The notes: a model not told the origin generated them from the letters alone. A stretch of 64,000 bases of DNA from Trypanosoma brucei (GCA_000002445.1 CP000070.1:1536001-1600000); one strand, 5' to 3'; shown: positions 21,663 through 64,000, numbered from the stretch's first letter. Translations and numbers: made by a program.

Positions 21663-21777
21663 CTGCTGTTTTTTTTTTAAGAAAAAGAAAGATAAGAAAA
21701 AAGAGAGGAAATAAATCAAGAGAAAAGTACAACGGCCCACGCTGCGCGTACATTTCGCATATGCATATGAAAGATGC

Positions 21778-21823
<46 letters not shown>

Positions 21824-28370: not shown

Positions 28371-28404
<34 letters not shown>

Positions 28405-28802
28405 CTATGTATAAATATATTCTTATTTCTTCTTATTCCCCTTATTATCACCATTGTTATTATTACAACATATGATCTCACAAACGTAGTGAAGTGTGGC
28501 AGCGGGGGGAGCACCAACTTAAAAGAAAAAAACAAAAAAGGGAAGAAAAAAAACAGCAACAACAACAGCATTAGTACGGAAGGACAGCAAATTTCTTATT
28601 ATTTTTTTTTAAAAAAAGGGACAAGAATAGGTGACCATCATACCAAAAGTATATACGCGAAGGGAAACATTTAAGGGGAGAGCAGAAAACCACGCAAACA
28701 AGTAAATTAAAAAATAAAACAGACAAACAAACAAACAAAAAAAGAAAACGACAAGAAAAGTTGTGGTAAAAAACAAAAAAAACAAGAAGTAAAGAGGAGG
28801 AA

Positions 28803-29315: not shown

Positions 29316-29508
29316 TGCATAATGATGGAAGAATAGTAGACAAAAAATAATAGTATACCTCATATATATATATATATATATATTTATTTATATTTATATA
29401 TTTTTATATATTAATAAGGGAGTTTCATTATTTATTGTTGTTTTATTTGTTATTGTTGTTGTTGTTTTATGCGGAGGTGGAGGAAGGGAAATTTTTCCAT
29501 TTAATAAA

Positions 29509-29531
29509 ACACACACACACACACACACACA
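29509..29531. repeat. (AC)11 microsatellite
   Basis: Seen directly. Confidence 0.95.
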
Positions 29532-32500
29532 AAGGAAATGGGAATAAAACAAATCAAAACAAACAAACAAATTGGTTGTGGATGCAGCGATCAGTGAGTT
29601 GGTTTGTGGAATATATGGAAATGTGTAAGGAGAGGAATCCAAGGGAAATTTATAAACTCGTATAAATCGCATGTGTCCGCTTATTTATATATTTATGAAC
29701 TCGTATTTATATTTGTGTTTTTATTCCTCTCTTTTTTAAACAGAACTTCCACATCTGCTCGTAACTTCTCGGGAAAAAATCTAAAAAAAAAAGTAAAAAA
29801 AGTAGAAGGGGCTCTTTTGTTTTTTTTTGTTTGACTTAACACCTTCTGTTCCTCACTACCTTTATTTTTGTTTGATCAGTTTTTGACGGAGTAAAAAAAA
29901 AAAGAAAAAGAAAACAAATGGAAGAAATTTTTTTCGTGTTCACGTTCGTTAAATAGTTTGTTATGTGTGTGTGTGTGTGTGTTGATGTTGTGTTTTCCAT
30001 CTAACTTCCATCTTGCGCTCCAAAATCAATTTTTATTATTATCATGCTGCAATCAAAAGAAAGAAAAAGAGGAGGAAATGCTTTTGTTTTGTTGTAATTA
30101 TCATAATTATTACCATTATTATCAGTATTTTTCGTTGTTGCTGTTGCCAGAAGTTGGTTGTGGATTTGTTGTTACGTTATTATTTGATTTAACGTAAAAA
30201 AAAAAAAATCCCGCTTACACAAACACACAAAATATACGGGTGTTTAATCTCCTCATTTTTTTTTCTGAGGGAGTTGTTTTTGCACAACCCCTCTTTTACG
30301 CTTCCACCGTATTAAAAAAAGAAAAAGAAAAAATTAAAGTTGAAGTTAATGCTAAAGTTGAAAAGGAGCCAATTGTTATTATATTTAAAAAATACATATT
30401 ACTAGTATTATTATTATTATTAAAAGCAGGAAGTCACACACGTGTTTTATTGCGTGGGGAAAGTCATGAAGGAAGATAGGACGGTGTGTTTGTGTGTGTG
30501 TTTTTTTTTGGGGGGGGGGAGGGAGAAGGGTGTATTTTAGACATGTGCATTTGTGATTTATATATAAACGAATTAATAGGCAAGAACTACTGACAACTCA
30601 AAATAAATTGAAGAATAATTAAGTATAAATAATATATATATATATGTTTATATTTCTTAATATTTGGGTAGTGGCAATACACACGCCTTAAAGGAATAAA
30701 GCAGAAAACAAAAAAAAGACATTTAACTCCACCTTTTTTTTCTTTTTTCTTTTTTCTTTTCCTTTCTTCCTTCTCTCTCTTTCGCTCCGTGATGGCCTAC
30801 TCTCCCCGTAATTTGTGTATGTGCCTCTATAATAAATAAATGCAAATATATTTCCATTATTTCTGTTTCTCTCCACGCGTATGTTTGGCTATTTCATAAA
30901 CTTCATACCTTTCTCTCTTAATTATCAGCAGGGCGCAACCTTCAGGATTGGTTTCGTTGTATGTTTTTTTTTTGTTATGTGGTTTTCCTTTTCATAACTT
31001 TGTTGTACATGTTGTAGATGAGATGCAAATGTGATTGAAGGATGTGAAGAAACACAGCGTTTGAACACACTTTCAAGTTTCTTTGTAATTCCATTTCCAT
31101 TCTGCTTTTTAATAATTATTGTTATTCTAATAATTACTATTATTATCATTATCTGTGTATGTGTTTTTGCATGTTTTTTGTTCGGGCATTTTCATACGGT
31201 TTCTTTTCTTTTTTTTTTCTGATTTTAATTTATATATTTTTGATCCCCTTTTCTATACCGCTGATCTTTACGAGTGTCATCAGCGCCGCTGCATTGTTTT
31301 TTCCTATGCTTTTTCCTTTGTCAATGTGACCTTACGAATATAATAATAATAACAATATTAAAAATAATGATAAATTAAGTACATAACTTTGTTGTCACTT
31401 CTCTCGTTTTGCCTCTCCCCTCCCCTTTTGCGCTTCATTACCATGTTGCGTCAGTTTAATTTATTATATCATTTCTTTTTCGTTTTGCTTAATTTTTATT
31501 ATGAAAAAAGGAAAAATTTTCCTGATTTTGTAATGGCTTCTCCTCCCCTCTCTTCTTTTAACATCCGTCCAATCAATGCGAGGGGGAAAAAAGTATAAGC
31601 AAATATATAATGTATGCTTGTACACGAAAGGAAAAGAAAACACAATACCGCAGTTTTCAACATAATCCTCCACTTGTCTACATAAAACACAAGCACACAC
31701 GTGCCGTTTCTCTCTATTTCTTTTTTTTCTTATTTATTTATATTATATTTTGTATCTTTATTGTACCCGAACCTTTACTTATTTCTGGCTTTAACTCATT
31801 TGTTTCATTATTCCTTTCTGTTTCTTTCTATCTTTCTTTTTTCCCCCTTTCAACTCCTCCTCCTACTCCTCCTGTTCTTCTTCATTTTCACCTTTATTTA
31901 TCTATACCAAAACGGAGGCGGTTAATCAACTTTTTTTACACGTTTCATGTCATAAATATTTTTTAAAATATATATATATTTATTTTTGGGAGGGTGCAAC
32001 TGCAGATGTTTTCCTCTTTTTTTGCTGTTTCCATTACACTTCACCATCACCTCCCTTTTTCCCACATCTTCTTTAAGTTATTGCCTTCACTTTTACCCTA
32101 CACCCCGATGTTTTGGTTGTTGTTTAAAAAAAAAATTAAAGTGTCTCCAAAAATAAAAAAAATTGTATTTCTCTTCTTCACTTCTCCTCTTTTTTTTCTT
32201 TTTAAAATTACGCGCTTCTATTCTCACTGTCTGCTCGTCATTTTACCTTTTGCCCTGTTGTTCCCTCATTCATTATTATTATTACTGTTACTATTGCCAT
32301 AAGGCCCCAAAAAAAAATTGTGAGAGTAATTAACAAAAGGGGTAGTGGGAAACCTGCATTAGTGCCGAAGTCGTGTTATTATTTTTTTTTTAATTGAAAA
32401 AAAAAGAGTAGCAAACAAGCAAAACAAATATTTGTATCATATATATATATATTATTTATTTACATATAAGGGATAGAAAGAAGTAATTGCTTGGCTGGGG

Positions 32501-32710
32501 TTTGTGCTCCTTGAAGAAATTCATACAGCCACCATTTTCAAAGAGCCATAAAGTATTCCTTTACAAGCTAATAGAAATACCATAGAACGAGAAAGGAGGA
32601 AAAAAAGAAACACGCGAGATAAACTTTAGTTGCACGGTGTCAAATACAAGTGGCAAAAAGGGAAAAGAGAAAAAGAAAAAAGAAAATAGGCAGATATTTT
32701 TATTAAACAA

Positions 32711-32711
<1 letters not shown>

Positions 32712-32746
<35 letters not shown>

Positions 32747-32755
32747 CATTTACGT
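32712..32755. repeat. (TA)22 microsatellite
   Basis: A perfect dinucleotide run seen directly, immediately upstream of the ATG at 32770. Confidence 0.95.
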
Positions 32756-32769
32756 ATTTTGGATACCAG

Positions 32770-49332: not shown

Positions 49333-49683
49333 ATGAAGTATAACTTCAAGGATTCACATTCTCTGGTAAAGCGATTGAATGAATCCGCAAAGGTGCGCAA
49401 GAGTCACCCCAACCATTTTCCCGTCATATGTGAAAAGGTGTATAACTCCGATATTGGTGAGTTAGACAGGTGTAAATTTCTCGTCCCATCTGATCTAACG
49501 GTCGGACAGTTTGTCAGCGTGCTACGCAAACGTGTGCAGCTGGAAGCCGAATCTGCACTCTTCGTTTATACCAATGACACAGTACTCCCCTCCAGTGCGC
49601 AAATGGCGGACATTTACTCCAAATATAAGGATGAAGACGGTTTCCTATACATGAAATATTCAGGTGAGGCGGCATTTGGATAA
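49333..49683 (+). CDS. ATG8.1: Autophagy ubiquitin-like protein ATG8, ending in the exposed Gly (ATG8.1-type), 116 aa
   Basis: Track ORF 49291 starts at GTG; the ATG is at 49333 (MKYNFKDSH...). It aligns at full length to ATG8/GABARAP: FPVICEKVYNSDIGELDRCKFLVPSDLTVGQFVSVLRKRVQLEAESALFVYTNDTVLPSSAQMADIYSKYKDEDGFLYMKYSGEAAFG, then stop. The terminal Gly is immediately followed by the stop codon. Confidence 0.9.
   Translation: MKYNFKDSHSLVKRLNESAKVRKSHPNHFPVICEKVYNSDIGELDRCKFLVPSDLTVGQFVSVLRKRVQLEAESALFVYTNDTVLPSSAQMADIYSKYKDEDGFLYMKYSGEAAFG
49424..49680 (+). repeat. Block of about 250 nt inside ATG8.1 that is nucleotide-identical to 51068-51324 in ATG8.2 (a gene-conversion tract)
   Basis: A direct comparison of the two stretches shows identity from tcatatgtgaaaaggtg through caggtgaggcg. 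There is one mismatch 9 nt before the stop. The flanks are unrelated. Confidence 0.85.
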
Positions 49684-50968: not shown

Positions 50969-51331
50969 ATGAGTAAAAAAGATAGCAAGTACAAAATGAG
51001 CCACACCTTTGAGAGCCGACAGTCGGATGCCGCAAAGGTGCGTGAAAGGCATCCGGATCGTTTGCCCATCATATGTGAAAAGGTGTATAACTCCGATATT
51101 GGTGAGTTAGACAGGTGTAAATTTCTCGTCCCATCTGATCTAACGGTCGGACAGTTTGTCAGCGTGCTACGCAAACGTGTGCAGCTGGAAGCCGAATCTG
51201 CACTCTTCGTTTATACCAATGACACAGTACTCCCCTCCAGTGCGCAAATGGCGGACATTTACTCCAAATATAAGGATGAAGACGGTTTCCTATACATGAA
51301 ATATTCAGGTGAGGCGACATTTGGATGCTAA
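50969..51331 (+). CDS. ATG8.2: Autophagy ubiquitin-like protein ATG8 with one extra residue (Cys) after the conjugation Gly (ATG8.2-type), about 120 aa; alternative start at 50996
   Basis: Track ORF 50960 starts at GTG; the ATGs are at 50969 and 50996. From IICEKVY onward the protein is identical to the upstream copy, except for Ala to Thr near the end and the C-terminal ...GEATFGC. The N-terminal about 25 aa differ. Confidence 0.9.
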   Translation: MSKKDSKYKMSHTFESRQSDAAKVRERHPDRLPIICEKVYNSDIGELDRCKFLVPSDLTVGQFVSVLRKRVQLEAESALFVYTNDTVLPSSAQMADIYSKYKDEDGFLYMKYSGEATFGC

Positions 51332-52515: not shown

Positions 52516-53640
52516 ATGCACGGTGACGGTTTGGGGCGTCTGCACCCCGGTAAGGTGTTCCTTACCATTGACGAGATTAAAAATGGCATATCTTCCTATC
52601 AGATCTTCGATGTCCGCTACGACCTCCGCAATAAAGAGTACGGTATCAACCAATACAACAAAGGGCATGTCGCGCGCGCCACATTTGTCGACTTGGATCG
52701 ACACCTTAGCGGTCCCGTCGTGGAATGCAGCAAAGCACGGCACCCCATGCCAGACCCGCACGAGTTTGTCGAGTGGTGCAAATCCAAGGGAATTGGCCAC
52801 TTCAAGCCCGTCCTTTGCTACGATGACGAATGTGGGGCGATGGGGGCGTGTCGGATGTGGTGGATGCTCAACGCCCTTGGTGTCGAGGCTTACGTAATGA
52901 CATGTGGATTCAAAGCATATGAAGCAGCAGGTCTGCCCGTCGAGTCCACACCGTATGACAAGAACCAATCGACAAGCTATTGGCCTTACGCAACAGAGTT
53001 TAAGAGGCTGTTGAAAATCAAAGACATTCCTCCCTGCGCACATATGGTCGACACACGACCCGCGCTGCGCTTCAACACGACCGTGCGACCATACGGACCC
53101 GACGATATCCCTGGTCATATCGAAGGCGCGGTCAACCTTCCGTACGATGTGAACATATTGTTAGTAAATCGGCACGAAAAACGTTTGAGACCCAATGACG
53201 AATGTCGTAGTAACACTCTTAAGCTTCTTCAAGGAATGTGGGGTGGCGGTGAGCCTAATATTTCCCACTGCGTATTTTACTGCGGTAGTGGGGTGACCGC
53301 TGCATTCAGCATTGCAGTTGCATATCACGTCGGACTCGGCGAGCCCTATCTATATGCCGGTTCGTGGTCCGAATATGCAGACACATTTAACTTTACACTG
53401 GCGCGCCGTATCATTAAAGAGCACGGCTTGCTCATAAGCATGGTCTCATCAAGTTTGCCGTATAACATGAAAGCTACTCTTAACAACGTTACCCTTGTTG
53501 TTGATGGTGTGGTTGTAAACAATCCTGATGAGGAACTGAAACAGGCGCTAGTGCACCTCCACATTGGTGAAAAAGCACATGTAACGTTCAAAAGTCAGCG
53601 ACAGGCTGTCATAGAGGCTCATCCTCGCATAGACACGTAA
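52516..53640 (+). CDS. MST: 3-Mercaptopyruvate sulfurtransferase (tandem rhodanese domains) with trypanosomatid-type C-terminal extension of about 80 aa, 374 aa
   Basis: It has two rhodanese-like halves. The active-site loop is CGSGVTA (FYCGSGVTAAFSIAVAYHVGLG). CG[ST]GVTA is diagnostic of mercaptopyruvate sulfurtransferases, whereas thiosulfate rhodaneses have CRKGVTA. The C-terminal tail ARRIIKEHGLL...EAHPRIDT extends beyond the second domain, as described for Leishmania MST. Confidence 0.85.
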   Translation: MHGDGLGRLHPGKVFLTIDEIKNGISSYQIFDVRYDLRNKEYGINQYNKGHVARATFVDLDRHLSGPVVECSKARHPMPDPHEFVEWCKSKGIGHFKPVLCYDDECGAMGACRMWWMLNALGVEAYVMTCGFKAYEAAGLPVESTPYDKNQSTSYWPYATEFKRLLKIKDIPPCAHMVDTRPALRFNTTVRPYGPDDIPGHIEGAVNLPYDVNILLVNRHEKRLRPNDECRSNTLKLLQGMWGGGEPNISHCVFYCGSGVTAAFSIAVAYHVGLGEPYLYAGSWSEYADTFNFTLARRIIKEHGLLISMVSSSLPYNMKATLNNVTLVVDGVVVNNPDEELKQALVHLHIGEKAHVTFKSQRQAVIEAHPRIDT

Positions 53641-54035
53641 AAACATGGACAGTCAACATCTCCATATGAAGAAAGTTGGGCATCCGCAGATAGTAAGGCT
53701 GAGTCACTTTGTTTTTATATTTGAAAACGGCAACAAAAAATGTGCAAACGGGGCTGCAAAGTAGTAACTACTCACAGGAAGATAGCAGCAACTCTTACAC
53801 ACCAAACAATTCAACGGGCAACCATTTACAAATCCTATAGCACTACTAGAAAAAAACTCTCGGAGTCAATAAATTTTGCCGTCCCCTCACAAAACGCCGC
53901 AAGTAATAAAGGAAAATAACTTTTTTTTTTGGAAATTGTCAACCACACAAGCAACGACGGAATGATAAACAGACATTTAAGGAAGAGTTCTAAAAATTAT
54001 TGTTATTTTTCAACAATAAACACGACCAAAAAAAC

Positions 54036-54222
54036 TTAATGCTCTCATTTCTCCCTTTTTTGACTTATTGAACCTTTGAACAATACCACAGACTAACAGC
54101 AATAAACAAGCACGCAGTCACGTAAAGGAACCTAACATTTTAGGGAAACAAAAATTATCTGGCAGCACACTGGGCGAAACATCAGGAGGAATACAACTGA
54201 GCGTACTGTACAAAACATTGCC
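54036..54222 (+). promoter_or_regulatory. Conserved PAD 5-prime flank / 5-prime UTR block (copy 1); probably holds the trans-splice acceptor and 5-prime UTR
   Basis: About 187 nt is near-identical at 54036-54222, 56793-56979 and 63090-63277 (cttaatgct[c/t]tcatttctccc...cagcacactggg[c/t]gaaacatc[a/g]ggaggaatacaactgagcgtactgtacaaaacattgcc ATG). Sequence further upstream and downstream of each stop codon differs. Confidence 0.6.
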
Positions 54223-56013
54223 ATGAGCGCACCCGTCGACAACGTCGTGGTGGAGCGGCTCTCTACAGCCAACCAAAAACCCATCAACGAGCCCCGCCGC
54301 TTTGCGCTGTTGGTTCTTGGAACCTTCTGCTGTATATGCACATCCTTCATGTATGCTTTCAATCTTATATCTGGAGCAATGCAAGCGCGCTACAACCTCA
54401 CACAGCGAGATCTCTCCACCATCACTACTGTTGGTATCGCAGTTGGATATTTCTTGCTGCCCTACAGCTTCATCTTTGACTATCTGGGGCCGAAGCCTAT
54501 CTTCGTGATCGCAATGACAGTTTTCTGCCTGGGTGCGCTTCTGTTTGCCTTGACATTCCAAGAAGTGATTGAAGGATCTGTTGTGAGACTCAGTGTCTAC
54601 AATGGTTTTTTAACATTGGGATGTATGTTGTTTGACTTGGGTTCAGTGGTAACAGTACTCAGCGTGTTTCCATCCAACCGTGGTGCCGTGATGGCTATCG
54701 TGAAGACATTTACGGGTCTTGGTTCCGCAATCGTCGGCAGTATTCAGTTGGCCTTCTTCAGCAAGAGTGTTGCCAACTACTTTTTCTTCCTGATGTCGTT
54801 TTCACTGGTCGTTGGTACCCTCGCCGTCGTGTTCATGAATCTACCACCATTCCATTTGACGGGTTATCAGAAGACACACCTTGATGAAGAAGAGAAGGCA
54901 CAGAGGCTTGCGCGCAAGGGTGTGTACCTGAAGCAGAAGGCACCCATGTGGCGTTTCGTTCATGGTTTCGCCATTCTCGTAACCCTCATTGTGTTCCTCC
55001 CCCTGCAGGGAGCGCTCGTAGCGTATCTCAAACTCGGAAGCAACTTCAAGGTGGGGTTTGCTGTGACAGTTATTGTGTTGACGGTAATATTCCCTTTTAT
55101 GGCATACCCACTTACTACCTTCGACGGAAAACGCCCACATGACGATTCTGAGGGTGAAACGTGTTGTAGGAGAGAAGTGGCTGAGGAAGTTTCCGCGTCT
55201 GATGACACGGGTGTTGAGACTGATGTCGACTATATTGCTCCACAGTTCCAGGAAACATTTATCGAAGGATTGAAAACAGCACGGTTATGGTGCCTACTGT
55301 GGTCAATTTTCTGTTGCGTCGGTGTGCACTATGTTATCATCTACAATGCTCGTTTCATCTACACGGCACTTGCGGGTGAGGCCCCCGACGACGCGCTCAA
55401 TGCCCTCCTTACTGTTCTCAACGGTGTGGGTAGTGCTGTAGGACGACTTTGTATGAGTTACTTCGAAGTCTGGTCGCAGAAGCGCCGTGCTGAAGATCGC
55501 GTCCCCATCACCTTCTCTATGTTTGTTCCTTCGGTTTGTATCATCACCATGTTGACACTCTTCCTCACTCTCCCGAAGGCTGCATTACCTTTACCATACT
55601 TCATCGCGGCACTTTCAAATGGTTTCACAGCGGCGATTATTGCATTGGTAACGCGCACAATATTCGCCAAGGATCCTGCAAAGCATTACAACTTCTGCTT
55701 TCTTGGCTCCGTGCTTTCAGCCATCTTCCTTAATCGACTACTGTACGGTGAGTGGTACACGCAACAAGCCGATAAGTTGGGTCAGGATGTTTGCACCGAG
55801 CGTGTTTGTGTGGTGATGCCGCTTGCATTTATGTTAGGTCTCGCCTTCCCAGCATTTGCTACTAGCACCTACTTGCATCTGCAGTACCGCCGCCTTTGCA
55901 TGCTTGCGCTTGACGAGCGTCGTCGCATCCGGGAGGGCGAACGTGGACCAAAGGAACCTTCTTCCTGCCCAAAAGAACCGACGAGGGATGCCCGTGAGGC
56001 TGCTCCGCAATGA
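54223..56013 (+). CDS. PAD: PAD-family (Protein Associated with Differentiation) MFS-type carboxylate transporter, copy 1, 596 aa
   Basis: An ATG-initiated ORF encoding a polytopic membrane protein of 12 or more hydrophobic segments. It is 95 percent identical to the next copy. Tandem duplication next to ATG8 and MST matches the T. brucei chromosome 7 PAD array, so this could be PAD1 by position. That is from memory and not verified. Confidence 0.85.
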   Translation: MSAPVDNVVVERLSTANQKPINEPRRFALLVLGTFCCICTSFMYAFNLISGAMQARYNLTQRDLSTITTVGIAVGYFLLPYSFIFDYLGPKPIFVIAMTVFCLGALLFALTFQEVIEGSVVRLSVYNGFLTLGCMLFDLGSVVTVLSVFPSNRGAVMAIVKTFTGLGSAIVGSIQLAFFSKSVANYFFFLMSFSLVVGTLAVVFMNLPPFHLTGYQKTHLDEEEKAQRLARKGVYLKQKAPMWRFVHGFAILVTLIVFLPLQGALVAYLKLGSNFKVGFAVTVIVLTVIFPFMAYPLTTFDGKRPHDDSEGETCCRREVAEEVSASDDTGVETDVDYIAPQFQETFIEGLKTARLWCLLWSIFCCVGVHYVIIYNARFIYTALAGEAPDDALNALLTVLNGVGSAVGRLCMSYFEVWSQKRRAEDRVPITFSMFVPSVCIITMLTLFLTLPKAALPLPYFIAALSNGFTAAIIALVTRTIFAKDPAKHYNFCFLGSVLSAIFLNRLLYGEWYTQQADKLGQDVCTERVCVVMPLAFMLGLAFPAFATSTYLHLQYRRLCMLALDERRRIREGERGPKEPSSCPKEPTRDAREAAPQ

Positions 56014-56792
56014 AGCTTAGGGGAGCCAGTGGAGGGCGGCTTCCTGACGTTTATTCAACATTTTGTGTATTTATATAATGTTAGCGACGACAGGAGAAAG
56101 TAAAATGAACAGATATACTTTGATTCCTTTTTACTATACTTTTCCTTTTTTTTTGCTTCTTTGTCTATACATATCGCATACCATTAGTGAGTTCCTTTAT
56201 TATCGCCTCCGACAATGAAGACGGTGCGCCAACTCTGGTAAACGATAAATAAACGGTTTTAAAAAATCATCTTTACACATATTGTACGAGCAGTCCATGC
56301 ATTATTATTCTTTTTTTTTGAGTTTTCTCATCAGAAGAGATCGATACAACAACACCAGTCACTATATGAACACACCAACTTATATCGTTAAATTCTTCAC
56401 TTAGCTCTCGTTTATGATCGATAAAAGTTCGAATTCACCTCAAAAAATTTCCAGAATTAATATTATATTTTCTTTCCATTCTTTGCTATTTTCAGAGCGA
56501 TCTCCTTACTCTCACCCACTCTTCACCCGTGGAAACACCATGTAATCCTTTTCTTCTTGCGGTGGGAGAGAGGAGAGTGCAGACCAACACAGGCACCCCA
56601 ACACCGTTGATCCGTAGTGCTACCTATCTCGTCTTCATATCTTTACTGCTTGTTATAATTTTGTCTTTTTTACCTTTTTTTTTCGGCTGCGCTGTCACGG
56701 TTTTATAAATGTCCATTGCAAAATAGTTGCTCTCAAGACACACATCAATAGCATTATATCCGCCCAATACCTCTTCTTTCATTCTCCCAAAA

Positions 56793-56979
56793 CTTAATGC
56801 TTTCATTTCTCCCTTTTTGACTTATTGAACCTTTGAACAATACCACAGACTAACAGCAATAAACAAGCACGCAGTCACGTAAAGGAACCTAACATTTTAG
56901 GGAAACAAAAATTATCTGGCAGCACACTGGGCGAAACATCAGGAGGAATACAACTGAGCGTACTGTACAAAACATTGCC
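56793..56979 (+). promoter_or_regulatory. Conserved PAD 5-prime flank block (copy 2)
   Basis: The same block as at 54036-54222, with one T indel. Confidence 0.6.
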
Positions 56980-58797
56980 ATGAGCGCACCCGTCGACAAC
57001 GTCGTGGTGGAGCGGCTCTCTACAGCCAACCAAAAACCCATCAACGAGCCCCGCCGCTTTGCGCTCTTGGTTCTCGGAACCTTCTGCTGTATATGCACAT
57101 CCTTCATGTATGCTTTCAATCTTATATCTGGAGCAATGCAAGCGCGCTACAACCTCACACAGCGAGATCTCTCCACCATCACTACTGTTGGTATCGCAGT
57201 TGGATATTTCTTGCTGCCCTACAGCTTCATCTTTGACTATCTGGGGCCGAAGCCTATCTTCGTGATCGCAATGACAGTTTTCTGCCTGGGTGCGCTTCTG
57301 TTTGCCTTGACATTCCAAGAAGTGATTGAAGGATCTGTTGTGAGACTCAGTGTCTACAATGGTTTTTTAACATTGGGATGTATGTTGTTTGACTTGGGTT
57401 CAGTGGTAACAGTACTCAGCGTGTTTCCATCCAACCGTGGTGCCGTGATGGCTATCGTGAAGACATTTACGGGTCTTGGTGCCGCAATCGTCGGCAGTAT
57501 TCAGTTGGCCTTCTTCAGCAAGAGTGTTGCCAACTACTTTTTCTTCCTGATGTCGTTTTCACTGGTCGTTGGTACCCTCGCCGTCGTGTTCATGAATCTA
57601 CCACCATTCCATTTGACGGGTTATCAGAAGACACACCTTGATGAAGAAGAGAAGGCACAGAGGCTTGCGCGCAAGGGTGTGTACCTGAAGCAGAAGGCAC
57701 CCATGTGGCGTTTCATCTATGGTTTCGTCGTTCTTTTGATTCTTGTTGTCTTCCTCCCCTTGGAGGGAGCGCTCGTAGCGTATCTCAAACTCGGAAGCAA
57801 CTTCAAGGTGGGGTTTGCTGTGACAGTTATTGTGTTGACCGTAATATTCCCTTTTATGGCATTCCCACTTACTACCTTCGACGGAAAACGCCCACATGAC
57901 GATTCTGAGGGTGATGCCAAAGAACACGTTGAAGCGGATGATGAAGTTTCCGCGGCGGAAGATAAGGTAGTTGAGACTGATGTCGACTATATTGCTCCAC
58001 AGTTCCAGGAAACATTTATCGAAGGATTGAAAACAGCACGGTTATGGTGCCTACTGTGGTCAATTTTCTGTTGCGTCGGTGTGCACTATGTTATCATCTA
58101 CAATGCTCGTTTCATCTACACGGCACTTGCGGGTGAGGCCCCCGACGACGCGCTCAATGCCCTCCTTACTGTTCTCAACGGTGTGGGTAGTGCTGTAGGA
58201 CGACTTTGTATGGGCTACTTCGAAGTCTGGTCGCAGAAGCGCCGTGCTGAAGATCGCGTCCCCATCACCTTGTCTATGTTTGTTCCTTCGGTTTGTATCA
58301 TCACCATGTTGACACTCTTCCTCACTCTCCCGAAGGCTGCATTACCTTTACCATACTTCATCGCAGCGTTCTCAAATGGCTTTATGGCGGCTACGATGGC
58401 ACTCGTAACACGCACAATATTCGCCAAGGATCCTGCAAAGCATTACAACTTCTGCTTTCTTGGCTCCGTGCTTTCAGCCATCTTCCTTAATCGACTACTG
58501 TACGGTGAGTGGTACACGCAACAAGCCGATAAGTTGGATCAGGATGTTTGCACCGAGCGTGTTTGTGTGGTGATGCCGCTTGCATTTATGTTAGGTCTCG
58601 CCTTCCCAGCATTTGCTACTAGCACCTACTTGCATCTGCAGTACCGAAATCTTTGTTTGAAGGCCCTTGAGGAGCGACGGAGGATAAAGGAAGCTGAAGA
58701 TAACCAAACAAATGCTGAAAATGTTTGTGCTGAACCTACCTGCGACGATAACGCTGATGCTTGTCTGGAGGAGAAAGCTGCTGATTCAAGCAAGTAA
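56980..58797 (+). CDS. PAD: PAD-family MFS-type carboxylate transporter, copy 2, 605 aa
   Basis: It begins 2757 nt downstream of copy 1 and is in register with it, including the 5-prime flank. The first about 735 nt of the CDS are near-identical to copy 1. Two central clusters of substitutions fall in hydrophilic loops, and there is a 3-codon indel. The C-terminal tail is different (…YRNLCLKALEERRRIKEAEDNQTNAENV...). Confidence 0.85.
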   Translation: MSAPVDNVVVERLSTANQKPINEPRRFALLVLGTFCCICTSFMYAFNLISGAMQARYNLTQRDLSTITTVGIAVGYFLLPYSFIFDYLGPKPIFVIAMTVFCLGALLFALTFQEVIEGSVVRLSVYNGFLTLGCMLFDLGSVVTVLSVFPSNRGAVMAIVKTFTGLGAAIVGSIQLAFFSKSVANYFFFLMSFSLVVGTLAVVFMNLPPFHLTGYQKTHLDEEEKAQRLARKGVYLKQKAPMWRFIYGFVVLLILVVFLPLEGALVAYLKLGSNFKVGFAVTVIVLTVIFPFMAFPLTTFDGKRPHDDSEGDAKEHVEADDEVSAAEDKVVETDVDYIAPQFQETFIEGLKTARLWCLLWSIFCCVGVHYVIIYNARFIYTALAGEAPDDALNALLTVLNGVGSAVGRLCMGYFEVWSQKRRAEDRVPITLSMFVPSVCIITMLTLFLTLPKAALPLPYFIAAFSNGFMAATMALVTRTIFAKDPAKHYNFCFLGSVLSAIFLNRLLYGEWYTQQADKLDQDVCTERVCVVMPLAFMLGLAFPAFATSTYLHLQYRNLCLKALEERRRIKEAEDNQTNAENVCAEPTCDDNADACLEEKAADSSK

Positions 58798-61700
58798 CAT
58801 CTTTTTTTTCTTTTCACTAACTTATGTTTTTAGCGGCACGTTACAGTGTACTAATTATCGTTTTACCCTCTCTTTTTTATTTTTTAATTTGTTAAAAAAT
58901 TTTCCCTCAAAACGTCTTTTCTTTTTGTGAATTACTATTCCTTCCCTTTTTTTTTTGTTTTTGTGGGGAAGGGGGAGGAAATTGTGGTAATGTAAACTGG
59001 TATATGTGTTTAATAACTTAAATGCCTTATGATGTGCAATTTCATTAGTAGTTCCGCTGCTTTCCAGTACCGAATATATTTTATGTTACTTAGCCTTCGC
59101 TGCGATGTAACAAGTAGTGGGGTGGTTGATTACTTGGCATATATAATGCACAGCATCAGGGCAGAGGCCACAGTTGTTTAGTTACACATTTTCCTACCTT
59201 CCATAATGTTGTTTTTTTTAGATTGAGCGATTCTTCCCCTTAAACTAATAATGTTTTTTAATTACCTCCTTCTTCCATCTTTTTTTTATTTTTGAAGGTC
59301 AGATTCCTTTTTATTATTATTATTTCTTCTCCCCTTTTCTGTGACTGTCTTTCAACCGCTTAGCACGTTGTTAGCGGAAGGACAAACGAAAACCTTAAAG
59401 GTTTTTGTTAATTTTGTCTATTTACTCTGTTTTGTATCGATTTTCTTTTGAAACGCCACTGAAAATGTGGAGCACATTTACTTTTTTTCCGGCTGTTCAC
59501 ACATGTACACATGCTTGGCCTTTCAAATCCACGCAAACCTTTGAACGCCTCTTTTTTTTTAAGTTTCTTCTTAAGAGAACGTTTTTTTTGATTATTTTTC
59601 TTTTTTAGTTTGAATACTACAAAACTACTTGTTCCCAATGTATTGGTTAATTGCCGGTCGTGGGATTTTGGTCCTTAACACGTAGCGGATAGATGCGTCG
59701 CTCATGATTAACCTGTGCTTTACTGCTTAATTCCTTTAGTCATAGTGTAGGAAAATATACGAATAGGAAAATGCAAACCACATCATGAGAGCATGGCATT
59801 CATTGTTCAATGTCTGCGGTGATGATGAAAGGTGCAGAAGCCAACTTTCGTTGCTTCGTCGGGGAACCCGTGTGCAGCGAAGGTTCCTCTTAACCGTCGG
59901 GTGCTCGGCATTTGACAGGCAGTAGCTTTATACCGCGTTCATCCCATTAATTATTCTTTTGCTTTGTTGCCTCTACAACATGCTCGCTTGGGAATCAGCC
60001 GATGCTGATGTTATTGCACACGTTTATATTTGTGTTTACGTGTATGCTCACCTGTGTACAAGAGGAAGAAGCATGTGGGCCTATCCATCACTACCAGAGC
60101 GGAAACCTGTTGCACCTAAAAGGTGATAACCCATTGAAAAAATATTGCTATGTAGGTGAAAAACAAACGGCAAAGAAAAAAAGGAAGGGAAAGCTAAGCA
60201 AAGCATATCCCTCACCCAGACGTCTGAGATAAACGTGAAACTGGACGAAGTGAAATAACACACAAAAGAGTAATTGAACAAATGGTTTCTTCTTTGTCCC
60301 CAAATGCCACTCAGAGGGAAGATGGTACGACCCAACGCTACGAAGCACCAAAGCCCTATTTGTAAGGTAGCGAAGGGAGACGAGGAAAGGGGCTAACGCT
60401 GAGGCGGGAAATTTTAGCGGAGGCAGCGGGAGGAACGTTGGGATTTACAGGGCGCAAGTGACGTCATCATTCTCTGGCAAGTTTTTGTGGTAAAACAGCG
60501 AATGCTCCGGGTGGGAATGAAGTGCTTTTAGAGTGCCCTATACCTTTTTAACGTGCTTTTCTTTCTTTCTGACTTTCGTTTGCTTCGCGGCGGCAATGTA
60601 CGTGCTCACTTTGGTAGTATTTCCAATACCATTGGTAACACTATTTACTGGGGAAAAACGTTAAAACTCTGTATGCGATGTGTTGACGGCGATTAGTGGT
60701 GTTGGAGCGAGGAGGTCTCGTTTTCTCAATATTCCACGATGGGTGTGTGGGTGTGTCGCAAGGGCGGGAAAATTTCTCGTAGCAATTCCTACATATTTGT
60801 CGTGAGCAATTCACCAACGCAGCAAGATGAGGGAACCGCGCATTGGGGAAACAGGGGTTTACATTTCGCAGAAGCGCTTAATAGACATGCACAAATAACA
60901 CATGTTTGTTGGATGTTTGATCATGCACATGTAGTGGAGAAAGTAGACGCACACCCTTCCGCGCACCAAGCTAGGAGAGATCAAGGATTCCATCCTTAAA
61001 AGCGATGATGCTTGGTGTAAAGCATATTTCTTGATGTGACATAACTTTCGGGTGAACTACGTATTGGTTGGGGAGGGTTTCCCCTTGAATGCAAGGCGAA
61101 ATTTAGGTGGTTACAATTGAATGTATTTTTACTTTTTTTTTTCCAATGGCGTGCCTCCCAGCCAACGTTATTGGTGAACGCTCTTCAGATGTGAATACGT
61201 GAGCGCACCTACAGTGCGAGTTCTTTCACCCATCAGCACGGGTATGTTCCTACTCCGAGGTCAGTCCAGCTTGGCACCTCGGTGCATCGGGAGGCCCGCT
61301 GTGAGGTAGAGTCACCTCATTTTTTTTCCTTGTGTCAGTTAAAAAGCCGCTTCGCTGTATCAATGGTAAAGCTCTGTGACGACGACACTGCGGCAGGAGG
61401 TGAAGCTTGGGCTCAAAGTGTCCAATTTGTGTGTTGAGGTGCCCCATCAACCTGAAAATCTGTGCGCACGTTGGGTGCCACTCTGGTGATTTGGTGCGCG
61501 TGTCCCCAAGCGTAATCAGCGATCCACTTGGCGGTGCCACCCTCTCCTGCGATCAAACGGCTGCGTCTGGCGCCAATGCGGCTGACGTTGTGCCAACTCC
61601 CATGGTAAGAGGCCCTGGTAGGAAGGGTCTACCCGCCTTTGGATTTGGTGGTGAAACTGCGGTGCGTCCACTGTTTTATATTTTCCTCTGCAATCGTATC

Positions 61701-63089
61701 AGTGTTTAATGAGAAGTATGAAGGGGCTTTCTGTTTCGTTGCTTGCATCTTATTCACGCTCATCTTGTCTTTTTGCCGAACAAGTCGGTGTTTGAGGTAC
61801 CTCATCCTACTACGAACGGCCGGGTCCCTCTACGTTCGGAACTGAAGATACACGATATCCACTTTATGTCGCTCTCATCACCAACGTGATGGGTAATGCT
61901 GTGCGCGTTGAAGGGAGAATGCCTTCAAGTTAACATGAGGGTGTTGCCACCCTGCCTGCAATGATACACCCCTGGGCTCCTTCAACTCATCACCACAAAA
62001 AGGACTGCGAATTCATAACCCCGGAAGGTCTCCCTCAATATCTCTTGGACAATTCAGCACCTCTCCGTTTACATACTTCAGACGTGTCCCTCTGATGTTC
62101 GGCGATGTGATAAGTCATTCCTTGCAACTGCAAGACTTATTGCGTCTCTATGCGGGCATAGCTCCAGTTTATTAGGGAGGGGGAATCAGGTGCGAGTCCA
62201 GGTTCGTCACCTCGCTGTGAAGCACGTTGTAAATGCCACGATGCTCGGTTGTAGAAACCGCTGCGTAACTTTGCGCTCATGTGTCCTGCCGGGTCGCGTC
62301 ACGTGGCAGTGATTCTCAGCGTCAAAGGGGTCCCCGACGGTATTACAAGCTTGAACCGTGCTGTTTTCAGTTGCGCAACCATGGCCATCATATCAGTGAA
62401 CCGTAGCCTCCCCGAAGGAATCGTAGGGAAGCGACTGGGGGCGTGCGAGCACTCACCAACGACTAATGTTTAGTTTCCTTCCACCCAATTATGTGCCGCA
62501 CTGCGTAGAGGATGTCTTTGCGCCCTGTGGGGAAATCGGAGCCTTCTCAGCCGAGAGATAACTGAGTGCAGATGTAAACTACCACAGCCACTCAACAGCC
62601 ACTGCCAAGTGAAACGGTTTACGTCATACCGTTTTCACTGCATCCGTATTTTACTCGTCTTTGATGCCATCAGCATCAAACAACATCATAAATACAGTAG
62701 TGTGCCACAAACTCCGAGTTATGCTTACTCTAACCGTAGAAGCAGAAAGGGTATGACAACAAAGGAGTCATTAACCCCTCAAACCACGTAGAATACATAA
62801 CAGTCCCCCTCTCCACCCCTACGCCAGGAAAGCACATTTCACATAATGTCGGAGAGACTAATGTGACTACAATGCGCGCACAGCACCTTTATTACCAAAA
62901 AGAAATGGACAAGCGAAGCAAAAAAAAAAAAAGAGACATTTGATCAACGCGCAAAAAATGAGGGATTGAACCTTCCAAATGGAAAGCACCTCCCGTCTTT
63001 TTCATGAAAAACAGCAAGCAAGATGTATTCTCCCAGACAACAATAGAGCTATGATTAACTTCTCACCACCTAGTTTCGTTCTCCCAAAA

Positions 63090-63277
63090 CTTAATGCTCT
63101 CATTTCTCCCCTTTTCGACTTATTGAACCTTTGAACAATACCACAGACTAACAGCAATAAGCAAGCACGCAGTCACGTAAAGGAACCTAACATTTTAGGG
63201 AAACAAAAATTATCTGGCAGCACACTGGGTGAAACATCGGGAGGAATACAACTGAGCGTACTGTACAAAACATTGCC
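63090..63277 (+). promoter_or_regulatory. Conserved PAD 5-prime flank block (copy 3)
   Basis: The same block as at 54036-54222, with a few substitutions and a one-base indel. Confidence 0.6.
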
Positions 63278-64000
63278 ATGAGCGCACCCGTCGACAACGT
63301 CGTGGTGGAGCGGCTCTCTACAGCCAACCAAAAACCCATCAACGAGCCCCGCCGCTTTGCGCTGTTGGTTCTCGGAACATGTTGCTCAATCTGTACATCC
63401 TTCATGTATGCTTTCAATCTTATATCTGGAACAATGCAAGCACGCTACAGGTTTTCCGTAAAAGATATAATGAATGTCAATGCGGTAGGGCTTGCAGTTG
63501 GATATTTCATGCTGCCTTATGGTTTCATCTATGACTATCTGGGGCCGAGACCCATATTTATGCTCTCACTAACGGTGCTGTGTCTCGGTGCGTTGCTGTT
63601 TGCCTTGACATTACGAGGTGACATCGAAGGAACTGTTGTGAGACTCAGTGTCTACAATGGTCTCATGACATTGGGATGTATGTTGTTTGACTTAGGCGGT
63701 GTGGTGACAGTACTCAGCGTGTTTCCATCCAACCGTGGTGCCATTGTGGCTATCATGAAGAGCTTTGTGGGTCTTGGTGCTGCGATCCTAGGCAGTATTC
63801 AGTTGGCCTTCTTCAGTGACAGGCCAGATATATATTTCTTTTCTATCATGTCGTTTGCCCTAACGGTTGGTATCCTCGGCATTGTATTCATGCGTCTGCC
63901 ACCATTCCATTTGACGGGCTATCAGGAAAAGCACCTTGATGAAGAAGAGAAGGCACAGCTTCGCATGACCAAGACCGTGTACCTGAAGCAGAAGGCACCC
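63278..64000 (+). CDS. PAD: PAD-family transporter, copy 3, 5-prime partial; the ORF runs off the window end
   Basis: The same conserved 5-prime flank and the same first 30 codons occur as in copies 1 and 2 (MSAPVDNVVVERLSTANQKPINEPRRFAL). After that it diverges to about 75 percent amino-acid identity over the 241 codons in the window. There is no stop before position 64000. Confidence 0.8.
   Translation, partial: MSAPVDNVVVERLSTANQKPINEPRRFALLVLGTCCSICTSFMYAFNLISGTMQARYRFSVKDIMNVNAVGLAVGYFMLPYGFIYDYLGPRPIFMLSLTVLCLGALLFALTLRGDIEGTVVRLSVYNGLMTLGCMLFDLGGVVTVLSVFPSNRGAIVAIMKSFVGLGAAILGSIQLAFFSDRPDIYFFSIMSFALTVGILGIVFMRLPPFHLTGYQEKHLDEEEKAQLRMTKTVYLKQKAP

What the first reader, a model, noticed from the sequence alone, without database searches (positions are those of the whole stretch)
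54036..64000. Tandem PAD-like transporter array with mosaic identity: conserved 5-prime flank, patchy coding conversion, divergent tails and 3-prime flanks
There are three tandem copies of a transporter of about 600 aa with 12 transmembrane segments. Each copy begins with a near-identical 187-nt 5-prime flank and the same first 30 codons. Copies 1 and 2 stay about 99 percent identical for about 735 nt of coding sequence. They then differ in two short hydrophilic-loop patches (aa about 244-260 and 308-328, including a 3-codon indel). Their cytoplasmic C-terminal tails and 3-prime flanks are unrelated. Copy 3 is only about 75 percent identical after codon 30. This patchwork fits repeated gene conversion that homogenises the 5-prime processing region and the membrane core. 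The surface-loop and tail variants and the 3-prime UTRs stay free to diverge. In T. brucei the PAD family is known to be differentially expressed across life-cycle stages through 3-prime UTR elements, which matches what the sequence shows. The location next to ATG8.1/ATG8.2 matches the known chromosome 7 array.
Basis: partly seen in the sequence, partly recalled or inferred. Interest (0 to 1): 0.75.

Follow-up and report, generated by a model that had tools for sequence, protein, structure and literature searches.

The report
Known trypanosome PAD transporter gene array
This is the start (PAD1, PAD2 and the first 241 codons of PAD3) of the well-studied PAD transporter gene array on Trypanosoma brucei chromosome 7, and its patchwork similarity comes from recombination between the gene copies, which was published for this array in 2007.

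Summary
The window is T. brucei brucei TREU927 chromosome 7. Copy 1 (54223-56013) is PAD1 (XP_846216, Tb927.7.5930). Copy 2 (56980-58797) is PAD2. Copy 3 (63278 to the window end) is the first 241 codons of PAD3.

The core observation holds:
- A shared 5' flank of about 192-204 nt, and 30 identical first codons.
- PAD1 and PAD2 are 99.6% identical over 735 nt. After that, their differences fall in sharp patches, and the tails and 3' flanks are unrelated.
- PAD3 is 78% identical after codon 30.

Three details are wrong:
- The protein models with 14 membrane helices, not 12.
- The first patch lies inside a membrane helix, not a loop.
- There is no 3-codon indel.

A third patch (aa 462-477) was missed.

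Recombination is well supported. Synonymous divergence is 0.007-0.03 in the backbone and 0.7-2.0 in the patches. Most patch versions match other PAD copies. Comparison with T. b. gambiense shows seven "concerted" sites in the backbone, while the patches stay gene-specific. The patches are therefore old cassettes that resist or were brought in by conversion. They are not freely diverging loops.

Jackson (2007) reported gene conversion in this array (as "Tb61"). Stage-specific control through the PAD1 3' UTR is also published. The finding is already known and of low interest.

The parts
52516..53640 (+). Mercaptopyruvate sulfurtransferase gene. It is the synteny anchor immediately upstream of the array.
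   Evidence: Exact match to XP_846215. Pfam Rhodanese and DUF1930.
54031..54222 (+). Shared 5' block of PAD1. It contains a pyrimidine tract (54042-54061), candidate splice-acceptor AGs and the 5' UTR. The homology ends here because PAD1 is the first copy in the array.
   Evidence: The splicing role is inferred from the sequence and was not tested.
54164..54281 (+). Nearly invariant block from -59 to +59 around the ATG, shared by all six paralogues compared. It begins with the AG of an ACAG (AG at -59/-58), and the same block occurs at 56921-57038 and 63219-63336.
   Evidence: Only 2 variable sites from -59 to -1 and none in coding positions 1-59, among PAD1, PAD2 and DAL972 PAD3-6. No stable RNA fold (z = +0.70).
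54223..56013 (+). PAD1 coding sequence (596 aa), Tb927.7.5930.
   Evidence: Exact match to XP_846216/AAZ12657. Pfam MFS_1 and Nodulin-like. Published PAD1 primers map at 55946-55966 and 56015-56037.
54958..55006 (+). Patch A in PAD1 (aa 246-262, inside helix 7). The PAD2 counterpart is 57715-57763.
   Evidence: 15 differences in 49 nt. PAD1 matches the PAD4 type and PAD2 is close to the PAD3 type. dS 0.88. Helix 242-269.
55158..55212 (+). Patch B in PAD1 (aa 312-330, disordered loop). The PAD2 counterpart is 57915-57969.
   Evidence: The PAD1 version GETCCRREVAEEVSASDDTG is private to PAD1 but conserved in DAL972 and T. equiperdum. PAD2 matches the PAD4/6/8 type. dS 0.71 and dN 0.65. pLDDT below 50 for 302-329.
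55608..55653 (+). Patch C in PAD1 (aa 462-477, helix 12, which corresponds to canonical MFS TM10). The PAD2 counterpart is 58365-58410.
   Evidence: PAD1 matches the PAD8-like copy. PAD2 is a mosaic of the PAD4 and PAD3/5 types. dS 2.05.
55890..56013 (+). PAD1 C-terminal tail. It starts like the PAD4/6/8 type and then becomes PAD1-specific. The PAD2 tail is 58647-58797: it starts like the PAD3/5/7 type and is then unique.
56014..56776 (+). PAD1 3' UTR and intergenic region. 56014-56515 is PAD1-specific. 56516 onward is shared with the region downstream of PAD5. By my conversion of published positions, the poly(A) sites fall at about 56720-56723 and 56735-56736.
   Evidence: intergenic positions 503-966 match the DAL972 PAD5-6 spacer at 98.5%. 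PMC3439917 gives poly(A) sites at 707-710 and 722-723 nt after the stop codon and silencing elements within the 3' UTR.
56777..56979 (+). Shared 5' block of PAD2.
56980..58797 (+). PAD2 coding sequence (605 aa), Tb927.7.5940.
   Evidence: Exact match to XP_846217/AAZ12658. Pfam.
58798..63073 (+). Unique 4.28-kb spacer. It is presumably the PAD2 3' UTR plus intergenic DNA.
   Evidence: No PAD remnant, no repeat elsewhere in the window, and 98.95% identity in DAL972. No ORF longer than 100 aa. No significant Rfam match. The UTR assignment is an inference.
63074..63277 (+). Shared 5' block of PAD3.
63278..64000 (+). First 241 codons of PAD3 (Tb927.7.5950). The gene is cut by the end of the window.
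   Evidence: It matches P0137 = XP_846218 over the overlapping region. It carries a PAD4-type micro-tract at 63959-63976 that DAL972 PAD3 lacks.

Best explanation
The region is the 5' end of the PAD (Proteins Associated with Differentiation) array of T. brucei TREU927 chromosome 7. It holds PAD1, PAD2 and the start of PAD3. These encode 14-helix major-facilitator transporters that are reported to carry citrate/cis-aconitate and to convey the signal for differentiation from stumpy to procyclic forms.

The mosaic pattern is produced by homologous recombination among the paralogues, acting in three ways:
1. Ongoing conversion between PAD1 and PAD2 keeps the 5' flank and most of the coding backbone nearly identical.
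2. Short tracts of about 18-60 nt are exchanged with other PAD copies.
3. Unequal crossing-over changes copy number and creates chimeric genes.

Three small cassettes resist homogenisation: helix 7, the central disordered loop and helix 12. The C-terminal tails and the 3' flanks also resist it. The likely reasons are that their high divergence blocks heteroduplex formation, or that selection keeps them gene-specific; this step is inferred.

Trypanosome genes are transcribed polycistronically. The gene-specific 3' UTRs therefore set each copy's stage-specific expression. This has been shown experimentally for PAD1 in the literature and is inferred for the other copies.
For: Identity:
- Exact protein matches to TREU927 XP_846215, XP_846216 and XP_846217 and to ATG8.
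- Pfam MFS_1 and Nodulin-like above the curated cut-offs.
- Homologues named "Protein Associated with Differentiation".
- Published PAD1 primers map uniquely to copy 1.
- PAD1-8 are Tb927.7.5930-6000 (PMC2771046).

Mosaicism:
- The sliding identity profile is patchy.
- dS is 0.007-0.03 in the backbone and 0.7-2.0 in the patches. PAD1 against PAD3 gives dS 0.59.
- Patch haplotypes are shared with other paralogues.
- A GENECONV-style permutation test gives many tracts with p below 0.001.

Ongoing homogenisation:
- Seven sites show W1=W2 but G1=G2 with a different base, all in the backbone. Of the 56 sites with the orthologous pattern, 51 lie in patches A-C.
- Backbone dS (0.012) is no larger than the TREU927-DAL972 intergenic divergence of 1.1-1.9%.

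Recent micro-conversions between orthologues:
- PAD3 coding positions 682-699: 12 differences in 18 nt, with TREU927 matching the PAD4 type.
- PAD2 coding positions 135-172 and 930-936.

Unequal crossing-over:
- PAD5 and PAD7 proteins are identical.
- DAL972 has six PAD genes against eight in TREU927.
- T. equiperdum has PAD1 x2 plus a PAD1/PAD4 chimera.

Prior publication and context:
- Jackson 2007 (PMC1855330) found conversion of copy 2 by 4 (937-1042), of copy 1 by 8 (1393-1477) and of copy 2 by 5 or 7 (1648-1814). These match my patches B, C and the start of the tail. He also reported three unrelated UTR types.
- The T. brucei PADs form one clade apart from two T. congolense array members. 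The unlinked chromosome 8 paralogue keeps its orthology.
- Regulation: PAD1 3' UTR silencing elements and poly(A) sites (PMC3439917). Expression groups follow the 3' flank types.
Against: - The direction of each exchange cannot be read from identity alone. "Escaped homogenisation" and "imported from another paralogue" give the same dS pattern.
- PAD3-8 DNA came from T. b. gambiense DAL972, not TREU927, because no TREU927 DNA beyond the window could be fetched.
- The seven concerted sites probably represent only 3-5 events. In principle they could reflect shared ancestral polymorphism.
- The T. equiperdum arrangement comes from one long-read assembly that contains frameshifts, so it may include assembly errors.
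- The reason why the cassettes resist homogenisation was not tested.
- The neighbour-joining tree has no bootstrap support.
Confidence: 0.85

Rival explanations
1. Conversion homogenises the 5' region and the membrane core. The loop patches, the tails and the 3' UTRs lie outside the conversion tracts and diverge freely by point mutation.
For: - Backbone homogenisation is real: seven concerted sites.
- Patches A-C are gene-specific and stable between TREU927 and DAL972.
- The PAD1 loop cassette is private to PAD1, with dN about equal to dS (0.65 and 0.71), as expected for a relaxed or diversifying disordered loop.
Against: - Patches A and C lie in membrane helices, not loops.
- Synonymous divergence in the patches (0.7-2.0) is as old as or older than PAD1 against PAD3 (0.59), next to flanks at 0.01.
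- Both versions of patch A, the PAD2 version of patch B and the PAD1 version of patch C recur nearly unchanged in other paralogues. They are exchanged or ancient haplotypes, not local free drift.
Confidence: 0.3
2. A simple recent tandem duplication of one gene, followed by ordinary divergence under uneven selective constraint, with no conversion.
For: PAD1 and PAD2 are each other's closest relatives over most of their length.
Against: - dS is bimodal with sharp edges.
- The 3' flanks and tails are unrelated although the units are adjacent.
- Patch haplotypes are shared with other copies.
- Concerted site patterns are seen between subspecies.
- The runs test is significant.
Confidence: 0.03
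3. Reciprocal unequal crossing-over alone, without non-reciprocal conversion, generated the mosaic.
For: - Copy number differs: eight genes in TREU927 and six in DAL972.
- PAD5 and PAD7 are identical.
- T. equiperdum has PAD1 x2 plus a PAD1/PAD4 chimera.
- 1-kb intergenic modules are shared at 99.5%.
Against: Internal tracts of 18-60 nt flanked on both sides by near-identity would each need two closely spaced crossovers. Examples are patches A-C, PAD3 positions 682-699 and PAD2 positions 930-936. Short-tract conversion is the simpler explanation.
Confidence: 0.1
4. An assembly artefact: near-identical repeats were collapsed or stitched together wrongly, creating an apparent mosaic.
For: - Tandem arrays are prone to misassembly.
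- The T. equiperdum assembly shows frameshifted copies.
Against: - The same PAD1 and PAD2 proteins, with the same patches and the same 4.3-kb spacer, are present in the DAL972 assembly.
- Published PAD1-specific primers and 3' UTR mapping agree with the window.
Confidence: 0.02

Closest known systems
T. brucei PAD array, Tb927.7.5930-6000 (PAD1-PAD8). Described by Dean et al. 2009 as cited in PMC3827541 and PMC2771046; the original paper is not held in the library.
   Same: It is the same locus. The proteins, the synteny and the published primers all match exactly.
   Different: Nothing differs. The window covers only PAD1, PAD2 and 241 codons of PAD3.
Array "Tb61" in Jackson 2007, BMC Evol Biol 7:54 (PMC1855330): gene conversion in T. 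brucei tandem arrays.
   Same: It is the same array analysed with the same idea. GENECONV and SISCAN found conversion tracts at 937-1042, 1393-1477 and 1648-1814 between copies 1 or 2 and copies 4, 8 and 5/7, and three unrelated UTR types. My patches B, C and the start of the tail coincide with these tracts.
   Different: New details from this work:
- Patch A at coding positions 736-784.
- dS values for each segment.
- Placement of the patches on a 14-helix model.
- The four-sequence TREU927/DAL972 site-pattern test.
- Micro-tracts that differ between orthologues.
- The T. equiperdum rearrangement.
Control of PAD1 expression through its 3' UTR (MacGregor and Matthews 2012, PMC3439917).
   Same: The PAD1-specific 3' flank at 56014-56515 largely overlaps the mapped silencing regions (1-354 and 354-624 nt). 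[quoted passage not shown]
   Different: That work concerns regulation, not the evolution of the array. The other PAD 3' UTRs, including the 4.3-kb region after PAD2, were not examined there.
14-helix MFS transporters (DHA2-type EfpA and QacA) and MFS carboxylate transporters (OxlT, SfMCT lactate transporter).
   Same: The predicted fold is MFS with two extra helices between the two six-helix bundles. The top Foldseek matches are EfpA, OxlT, SfMCT and QacA. The only sequence-level PDB match is the SfMCT lactate transporter 6g9x (E = 1.5e-7).
   Different: Sequence identity is only 10-15%. No substrate can be inferred from these matches. PAD proteins also carry a roughly 50-residue disordered loop after the extra hairpin.
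Gene conversion between the tandem TbrPDEB1 and TbrPDEB2 genes (PMC2689650).
   Same: It is another T. brucei tandem pair in which a conversion tract moves a domain-sized segment between paralogues. The comparison rests on the title and abstract only.
   Different: It is a different gene family with a single long tract, and it is strain-specific.

Membership tests
T. brucei PAD array (Tb927.7.5930-6000) | Protein sequences identical to the annotated TREU927 PAD1 and PAD2. | tested here: met
   exact matches to XP_846216.1 and XP_846217.1. Numbering follows PMC2771046.
T. brucei PAD array (Tb927.7.5930-6000) | Chromosomal context: downstream of the ATG8 pair and mercaptopyruvate sulfurtransferase on chromosome 7. 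| tested here: met
   The same gene order is seen in T. equiperdum and DAL972.
T. brucei PAD array (Tb927.7.5930-6000) | Published PAD1-specific reagents map to copy 1. | tested here: met
   Primers from PMC3439917 each hit once, at 55946-55966 and 56015-56037.
T. brucei PAD array (Tb927.7.5930-6000) | Carboxylate (citrate/cis-aconitate) transport and a role in differentiation. | not testable with these tools
   Literature only (PMC3827541).
T. brucei PAD array (Tb927.7.5930-6000) | Stage-specific expression set by gene-specific 3' UTRs. | not testable with these tools
   The sequence shows unrelated 3' flanks. Function is shown for PAD1 only, in PMC3439917. Expression groups are reported in PMC2771046 and PMC5176191.
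Major facilitator superfamily | Match to Pfam MFS_1 or Nodulin-like above the curated cut-off. | tested here: met
   MFS_1 scores 58.7-61.8 bits for the two complete proteins and 44.3 for the PAD3 fragment (cut-off 33.4). Nodulin-like scores 37.8-39.7 bits (cut-off 24.7).
Major facilitator superfamily | MFS fold: two six-helix bundles. | tested here: met
   AlphaFold model with pLDDT 83.8 and pTM 0.83. 322 PDB matches at E <= 0.001; all 50 top-ranked matches listed are MFS transporters.
   The model has 14 long helices. The extra pair is 242-269 and 273-294. This fits the 14-helix MFS subgroup.
Tandem arrays under concerted evolution and gene conversion (sensu Jackson 2007) | Differences are clustered, and shared tracts are longer than expected by chance. 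| tested here: met
   Permutation test on 598 polymorphic sites. Sliding identity profile.
Tandem arrays under concerted evolution and gene conversion (sensu Jackson 2007) | Closest relative changes along the alignment, judged from shared haplotypes (donor identity). | tested here: met
   The result agrees with the published SISCAN analysis.
Tandem arrays under concerted evolution and gene conversion (sensu Jackson 2007) | Paralogues within one genome share states that the orthologues in another genome lack. | tested here: met
   seven such sites, all in the backbone, for example N58 in both TREU927 genes and D58 in both DAL972 genes. These represent few independent events, and ancestral polymorphism is not formally excluded.
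Tandem arrays under concerted evolution and gene conversion (sensu Jackson 2007) | Direct observation of a conversion event. | not testable with these tools
   This needs marked-gene or break-induced repair experiments.

The most novel reading that the evidence does not exclude
PAD isoform identity may be carried by a few small cassettes plus the tail and the 3' UTR. The cassettes are helix 7, the disordered loop and helix 12, which corresponds to the cavity-lining TM10. Selection would hold these cassettes against a conversion process that is still homogenising everything else on the time scale of subspecies divergence. The same process would still be shuffling cassettes between isoforms in different strains. 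Examples are the PAD4-type LRMTKT tract in TREU927 PAD3 but not in DAL972 PAD3, and the T. equiperdum first copy, which carries a PAD4/8-type loop on a PAD1 body. If this is right, PAD substrate or sensing specificity, and the epitopes of the widely used PAD1 stumpy-form marker, could differ between strains.
Probability: 0.25. Interest if true: 0.4.

Novelty: already known. Interest (0 to 1): 0.18.

Why it matters
PAD1 is the standard molecular marker of the transmissible stumpy form of the sleeping-sickness parasite, and PAD proteins convey the differentiation signal. Knowing which parts of PAD1 and PAD2 are interchangeable and which are gene-specific helps in designing specific probes, antibodies, RNAi and CRISPR guides. 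The specific parts are three short cassettes, the tail and the 3' UTR.

The evolutionary explanation, gene conversion in this very array, and the role of the 3' UTR are both already published. The finding therefore adds confirmation and some finer detail, not a new phenomenon.

Tried and rejected
- **TREU927 DNA beyond the window.** Look-ups of PAD1, PAD2, PAD8 (P0012) and PAD5/7 (P0013) found no record. DAL972 (L002, L003) and T. equiperdum (L001) DNA were used instead.
- **Dean et al. 2009.** The paper could not be read, either by PubMed id or by a guessed PMC id. Its content is cited only through later papers.
- **The 4.28-kb spacer as a decayed PAD copy or repeat.** tblastn found only a 22-aa match at E = 3.2. 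blastn found no repeat in the window apart from a 54-nt match at 78% identity. The idea was rejected.
- **Known RNA families.** Nothing reached a gathering score anywhere in the window. In 53600-64000 there was one chance-level match at E = 0.059.
- **The invariant -59 to +59 block as a structured RNA element.** The fold gave z = +0.70, and 147 of 200 shuffles folded at least as well. There is no support for this idea.
- **The private PAD1 loop cassette as a frameshifted or inverted form of the PAD2 cassette.** Translations in the other five frames show no relation. The idea was rejected. At the DNA level the cassette looks like a diverged blend of the PAD3/5 and PAD4 types.
- **Antisense ORFs of 147 aa** (54118-54561 and 56875-57318, minus strand). 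They lie opposite the shared 5' coding sequence of the two copies, no evidence for a gene was sought or seen, and they are treated as by-products of the repeat.
- **The 3-codon indel.** It was looked for and not found.

Full report
**What is there.**
The last 10 kb of the window holds three same-strand genes.
- Two are complete: 54223-56013 (596 aa) and 56980-58797 (605 aa).
- The third starts at 63278 and is cut after 241 codons by the end of the window.
- All three match Pfam MFS_1 and Nodulin-like above the curated cut-offs.

An exact-sequence look-up identifies the source as Trypanosoma brucei brucei TREU927 chromosome 7 (2,205,233 bp).
- Copy 1 is XP_846216.
- Copy 2 is XP_846217.
- The gene just upstream (52516-53640) is mercaptopyruvate sulfurtransferase, XP_846215.
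- The ORF at 50969-51328 is an ATG8 protein.

The next TREU927 accessions, XP_846218 to XP_846223, are six more paralogues. The literature names the eight genes PAD1-PAD8, Tb927.7.5930-6000 (PMC2771046). Two published PAD1-specific primers each hit the window once, in the tail and at the start of the 3' flank of copy 1. The window therefore holds PAD1, PAD2 and the start of PAD3.

**Checking the observation.**
- Homology between the units starts 192 nt upstream of the PAD1 ATG, at 54031. This is the edge of the array. For PAD2 and PAD3 it starts 204 nt upstream, at 56777 and 63074.
- The flanks are 97-99% identical.
- Codons 1-30 are identical in all three genes.
- PAD1 and PAD2 differ at 3 of the first 735 coding positions.
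- Their remaining differences fall in sharp patches:
  - Patch A, coding positions 736-784 (aa 246-262).
  - Patch B, positions 936-990 (aa 312-330).
  - A few isolated sites.
- From position 1668 the tails drop to 45% identity, and the 3' flanks are unrelated.
- PAD3 is 77.9% identical to PAD1 over positions 91-723.

Three details are wrong.
- The offset between PAD1 and PAD2 stays at 2757 nt through the whole aligned coding sequence. The proteins align without gaps until the C-terminal end, so there is no 3-codon indel.
- An AlphaFold model built on 51 homologues (pLDDT 83.8, pTM 0.83) has 14 long helices arranged 6+2+6, not 12.
- Patch A lies inside helix 242-269 and patch C inside helix 456-480. 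Only patch B lies in a hydrophilic loop, the disordered 302-329 segment.

PAD3 is also not regularly spaced. It follows a 4.28-kb unique spacer.

**Is the patchiness more than uneven constraint?**
Yes. Nei-Gojobori synonymous divergence (dS) between PAD1 and PAD2 is as follows.

| Segment | dS |
|---|---|
| Backbone segments | 0.007-0.03 |
| Patch A | 0.88 |
| Patch B | 0.71 |
| Patch C | 2.05 |
| PAD1 vs PAD3, codons 31-241 (for comparison) | 0.59 |

Silent sites therefore change from almost no divergence to old-paralogue divergence within a few bases. Variable protein constraint cannot produce this pattern.

I also ran a GENECONV-style test. I shuffled the order of 598 polymorphic columns from PAD1, PAD2 and DAL972 PAD3-6, 5000 times. 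The runs of shared states were far longer than chance for almost every pair. Examples are 142 sites for PAD1=PAD2, 81 sites for PAD3=PAD5 and 71 sites for PAD5=PAD8-like. None of the 5000 shuffles reached any of these.

**Where the patch sequences come from.**
I lined up every PAD1/PAD2 difference against the other paralogues. I used DAL972 DNA (L002), because no TREU927 DNA beyond the window could be fetched.
- Patch A: PAD1 is identical to PAD4. PAD2 is PAD3-like at about 12 of 15 sites.
- Patch B: PAD2 is nearly identical to PAD4/6/8. The PAD1 version (GETCCRREVAEEVSASDDTG) occurs in no other TREU927 paralogue.
- Patch C: PAD1 matches the PAD8-like copy. PAD2 is a mosaic of the PAD4 and PAD3/5 types.
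- Start of the tail: PAD2 matches the PAD3/5/7 type and PAD1 matches the PAD4/6/8 type.

The patches are thus cassettes that circulate within the array. They are not loops drifting on their own.

This reproduces a published result. Jackson (2007, PMC1855330) analysed this array as "Tb61" and reported three events:
- conversion of copy 2 by copy 4 at 937-1042;
- conversion of copy 1 by copy 8 at 1393-1477;
- conversion of copy 2 by copy 5 or 7 at 1648-1814.

He also reported events affecting 7 of the 8 copies, and three unrelated UTR types.

**Is homogenisation still going on?**
I fetched DAL972 PAD1 and PAD2 (L003) and classified the variable sites from -192 to +1667 among the four sequences.
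- 56 sites follow orthology (W1=G1, W2=G2). Of these, 51 lie in patches A-C.
- Seven sites show the concerted pattern (W1=W2, G1=G2). All seven lie in the backbone, at -109, -39, 135, 168, 172, 489 and 1374.
- At the protein level, residue 58 is N in both TREU927 genes and D in both DAL972 genes.
- Backbone dS (0.012 over codons 1-245) is no larger than the TREU927-DAL972 intergenic divergence of 1.1-1.9%.

So the backbone has been homogenised since, or around, the split of these lineages. The three cassettes stayed gene-specific through the same period.

Orthologues also differ by micro-tracts.
- TREU927 PAD3 carries a PAD4-type tract at coding positions 682-699, with 12 differences in 18 nt (LRMTKT against RLARKG in DAL972).
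- PAD2 differs between the two lineages at positions 135-172 and 930-936.

**Larger rearrangements.**
- PAD5 and PAD7 proteins are identical in TREU927, and DAL972 has six PAD genes rather than eight.
- The T. equiperdum assembly has two full PAD1 units with the same 2757-nt period. They are followed by a frameshifted gene with a PAD1-like body and a PAD4 tail and 3' flank.
- The PAD2 tail, the spacer and PAD3 are absent from the 21.8 kb that was read.
- This looks like unequal crossing-over, but it comes from a single assembly that contains frameshifts.
- Intergenic DNA is also modular. The last 464 nt before PAD2 match the DAL972 PAD5-6 spacer at 98.5%. This agrees with the published remark that the PAD1 poly(A) region also occurs downstream of PAD5 and PAD7.

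**The 5' block.**
There are two flank types.
- PAD1, PAD2, PAD3 and the PAD8-like gene share about 192-204 nt.
- PAD4 and PAD5 share a different 1-kb flank.

All copies converge at an AG at -59/-58. From -59 to +59 there are only two variable sites among six paralogues, and none in coding positions 1-59.

T. congolense array members and the unlinked T. brucei chromosome 8 paralogue have different N-termini. Protein constraint alone therefore does not explain this block. The block shows no stable RNA fold (z = +0.70). I read it as the common 5' UTR plus the start of the gene, kept uniform by conversion. The splice-site assignment is an inference.

**How it works.**
The fold is a 14-helix MFS.
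- The best PDB matches are EfpA, OxlT, the SfMCT lactate transporter and QacA.
- The only sequence-level PDB match is SfMCT, at E = 1.5e-7.

Transport of citrate/cis-aconitate and a role in differentiation are known from the literature only (PMC3827541).

Trypanosome genes are transcribed polycistronically, so the gene-specific 3' flanks are where differential expression can be encoded.
- PAD1 silencing elements and poly(A) sites at 707-710 and 722-723 nt after the stop codon have been mapped experimentally (PMC3439917).
- The mapped silencing regions (1-354 and 354-624 nt) largely overlap the PAD1-specific part of the flank (56014-56515).
- Expression groups reported elsewhere are PAD1/2 in stumpy forms, PAD5/7 in procyclic forms and PAD4/6/8 in salivary-gland forms. 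These follow the tail and 3' flank types that I see.

Why the cassettes resist homogenisation is inferred. Either selection keeps them distinct, or local divergence of 30-50% blocks heteroduplex extension.

**Verdict.**
The conversion idea is right in outline but wrong about the nature of the patches. Both the conversion analysis of this array and the 3' UTR regulation are already published, so this is a known feature of low interest.

The finer points added here are:
- patch A;
- dS values for each segment;
- placement of the patches on the helices;
- the four-sequence site-pattern test;
- micro-tracts that differ between orthologues;
- the T. equiperdum chimera.

Noticed in passing
window 21663-32769: About 11 kb with no ORF of 200 aa or more. 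GC is 0.31-0.34 across 22-32 kb, against about 0.39-0.50 in the rest of the window, inside a run of same-strand genes. No Rfam family matches. The only tandem repeat is a T-rich 25-26 nt unit repeated 2-3 times at 27671-27739.
   Followed up: no
window 58798-63073: A 4.28-kb unique spacer between PAD2 and PAD3, much longer than the 0.97-kb PAD1-PAD2 spacer. It has no PAD remnant and no ORF longer than 100 aa, and it is 98.95% identical in T. b. gambiense. It may be a very long PAD2 3' UTR or hold an unannotated transcript.
   Followed up: partly
L001 7244-20780 (T. equiperdum GCA_003543875, CM010678.1): The array is rearranged. It has two full PAD1 units, then a frameshifted chimera with a PAD1 body and a PAD4 tail, then PAD5-like and frameshifted PAD8-like genes. 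The PAD2 tail, the spacer and PAD3 are missing. The first copy carries a PAD4/8-type loop cassette on a PAD1 body. T. equiperdum is not transmitted by tsetse flies, so decay of the array is plausible, but assembly error is not excluded.
   Followed up: partly
window 63959-63976; L002 near 7377-7394: TREU927 PAD3 and DAL972 PAD3 differ at 12 of 18 consecutive positions (LRMTKT against RLARKG). The TREU927 version is identical to PAD4. This is a micro-conversion that distinguishes orthologues.
   Followed up: yes
window 54164-54281 (also 56921-57038 and 63219-63336): A 118-nt block from -59 to +59 around the ATG is almost invariant in all PAD copies, silent sites included. It begins with an AG at the point where the two 5' flank types converge. 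It has no stable RNA fold.
   Followed up: partly
window 49385-49681 and 51030-51326: The two tandem ATG8 genes share a roughly 297-nt stretch at about 96% identity. This is another small duplicated pair just upstream of the array.
   Followed up: no
window 54118-54561 and 56875-57318, minus strand: Near-identical 147-aa antisense ORFs lie opposite the shared 5' flank and the start of the PAD1 and PAD2 coding sequences (a shorter 52-aa antisense ORF lies opposite the start of PAD3 at 63173-63331). They are most likely by-products of the repeat and not genes.
   Followed up: no
L002 15472-15852 and L003 130-510 (DAL972): The DAL972 annotation-aa genes with no Pfam match, one in the spacer between PAD5 and the PAD8-like gene and one upstream of ATG8. 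Their reality was not checked.
   Followed up: no
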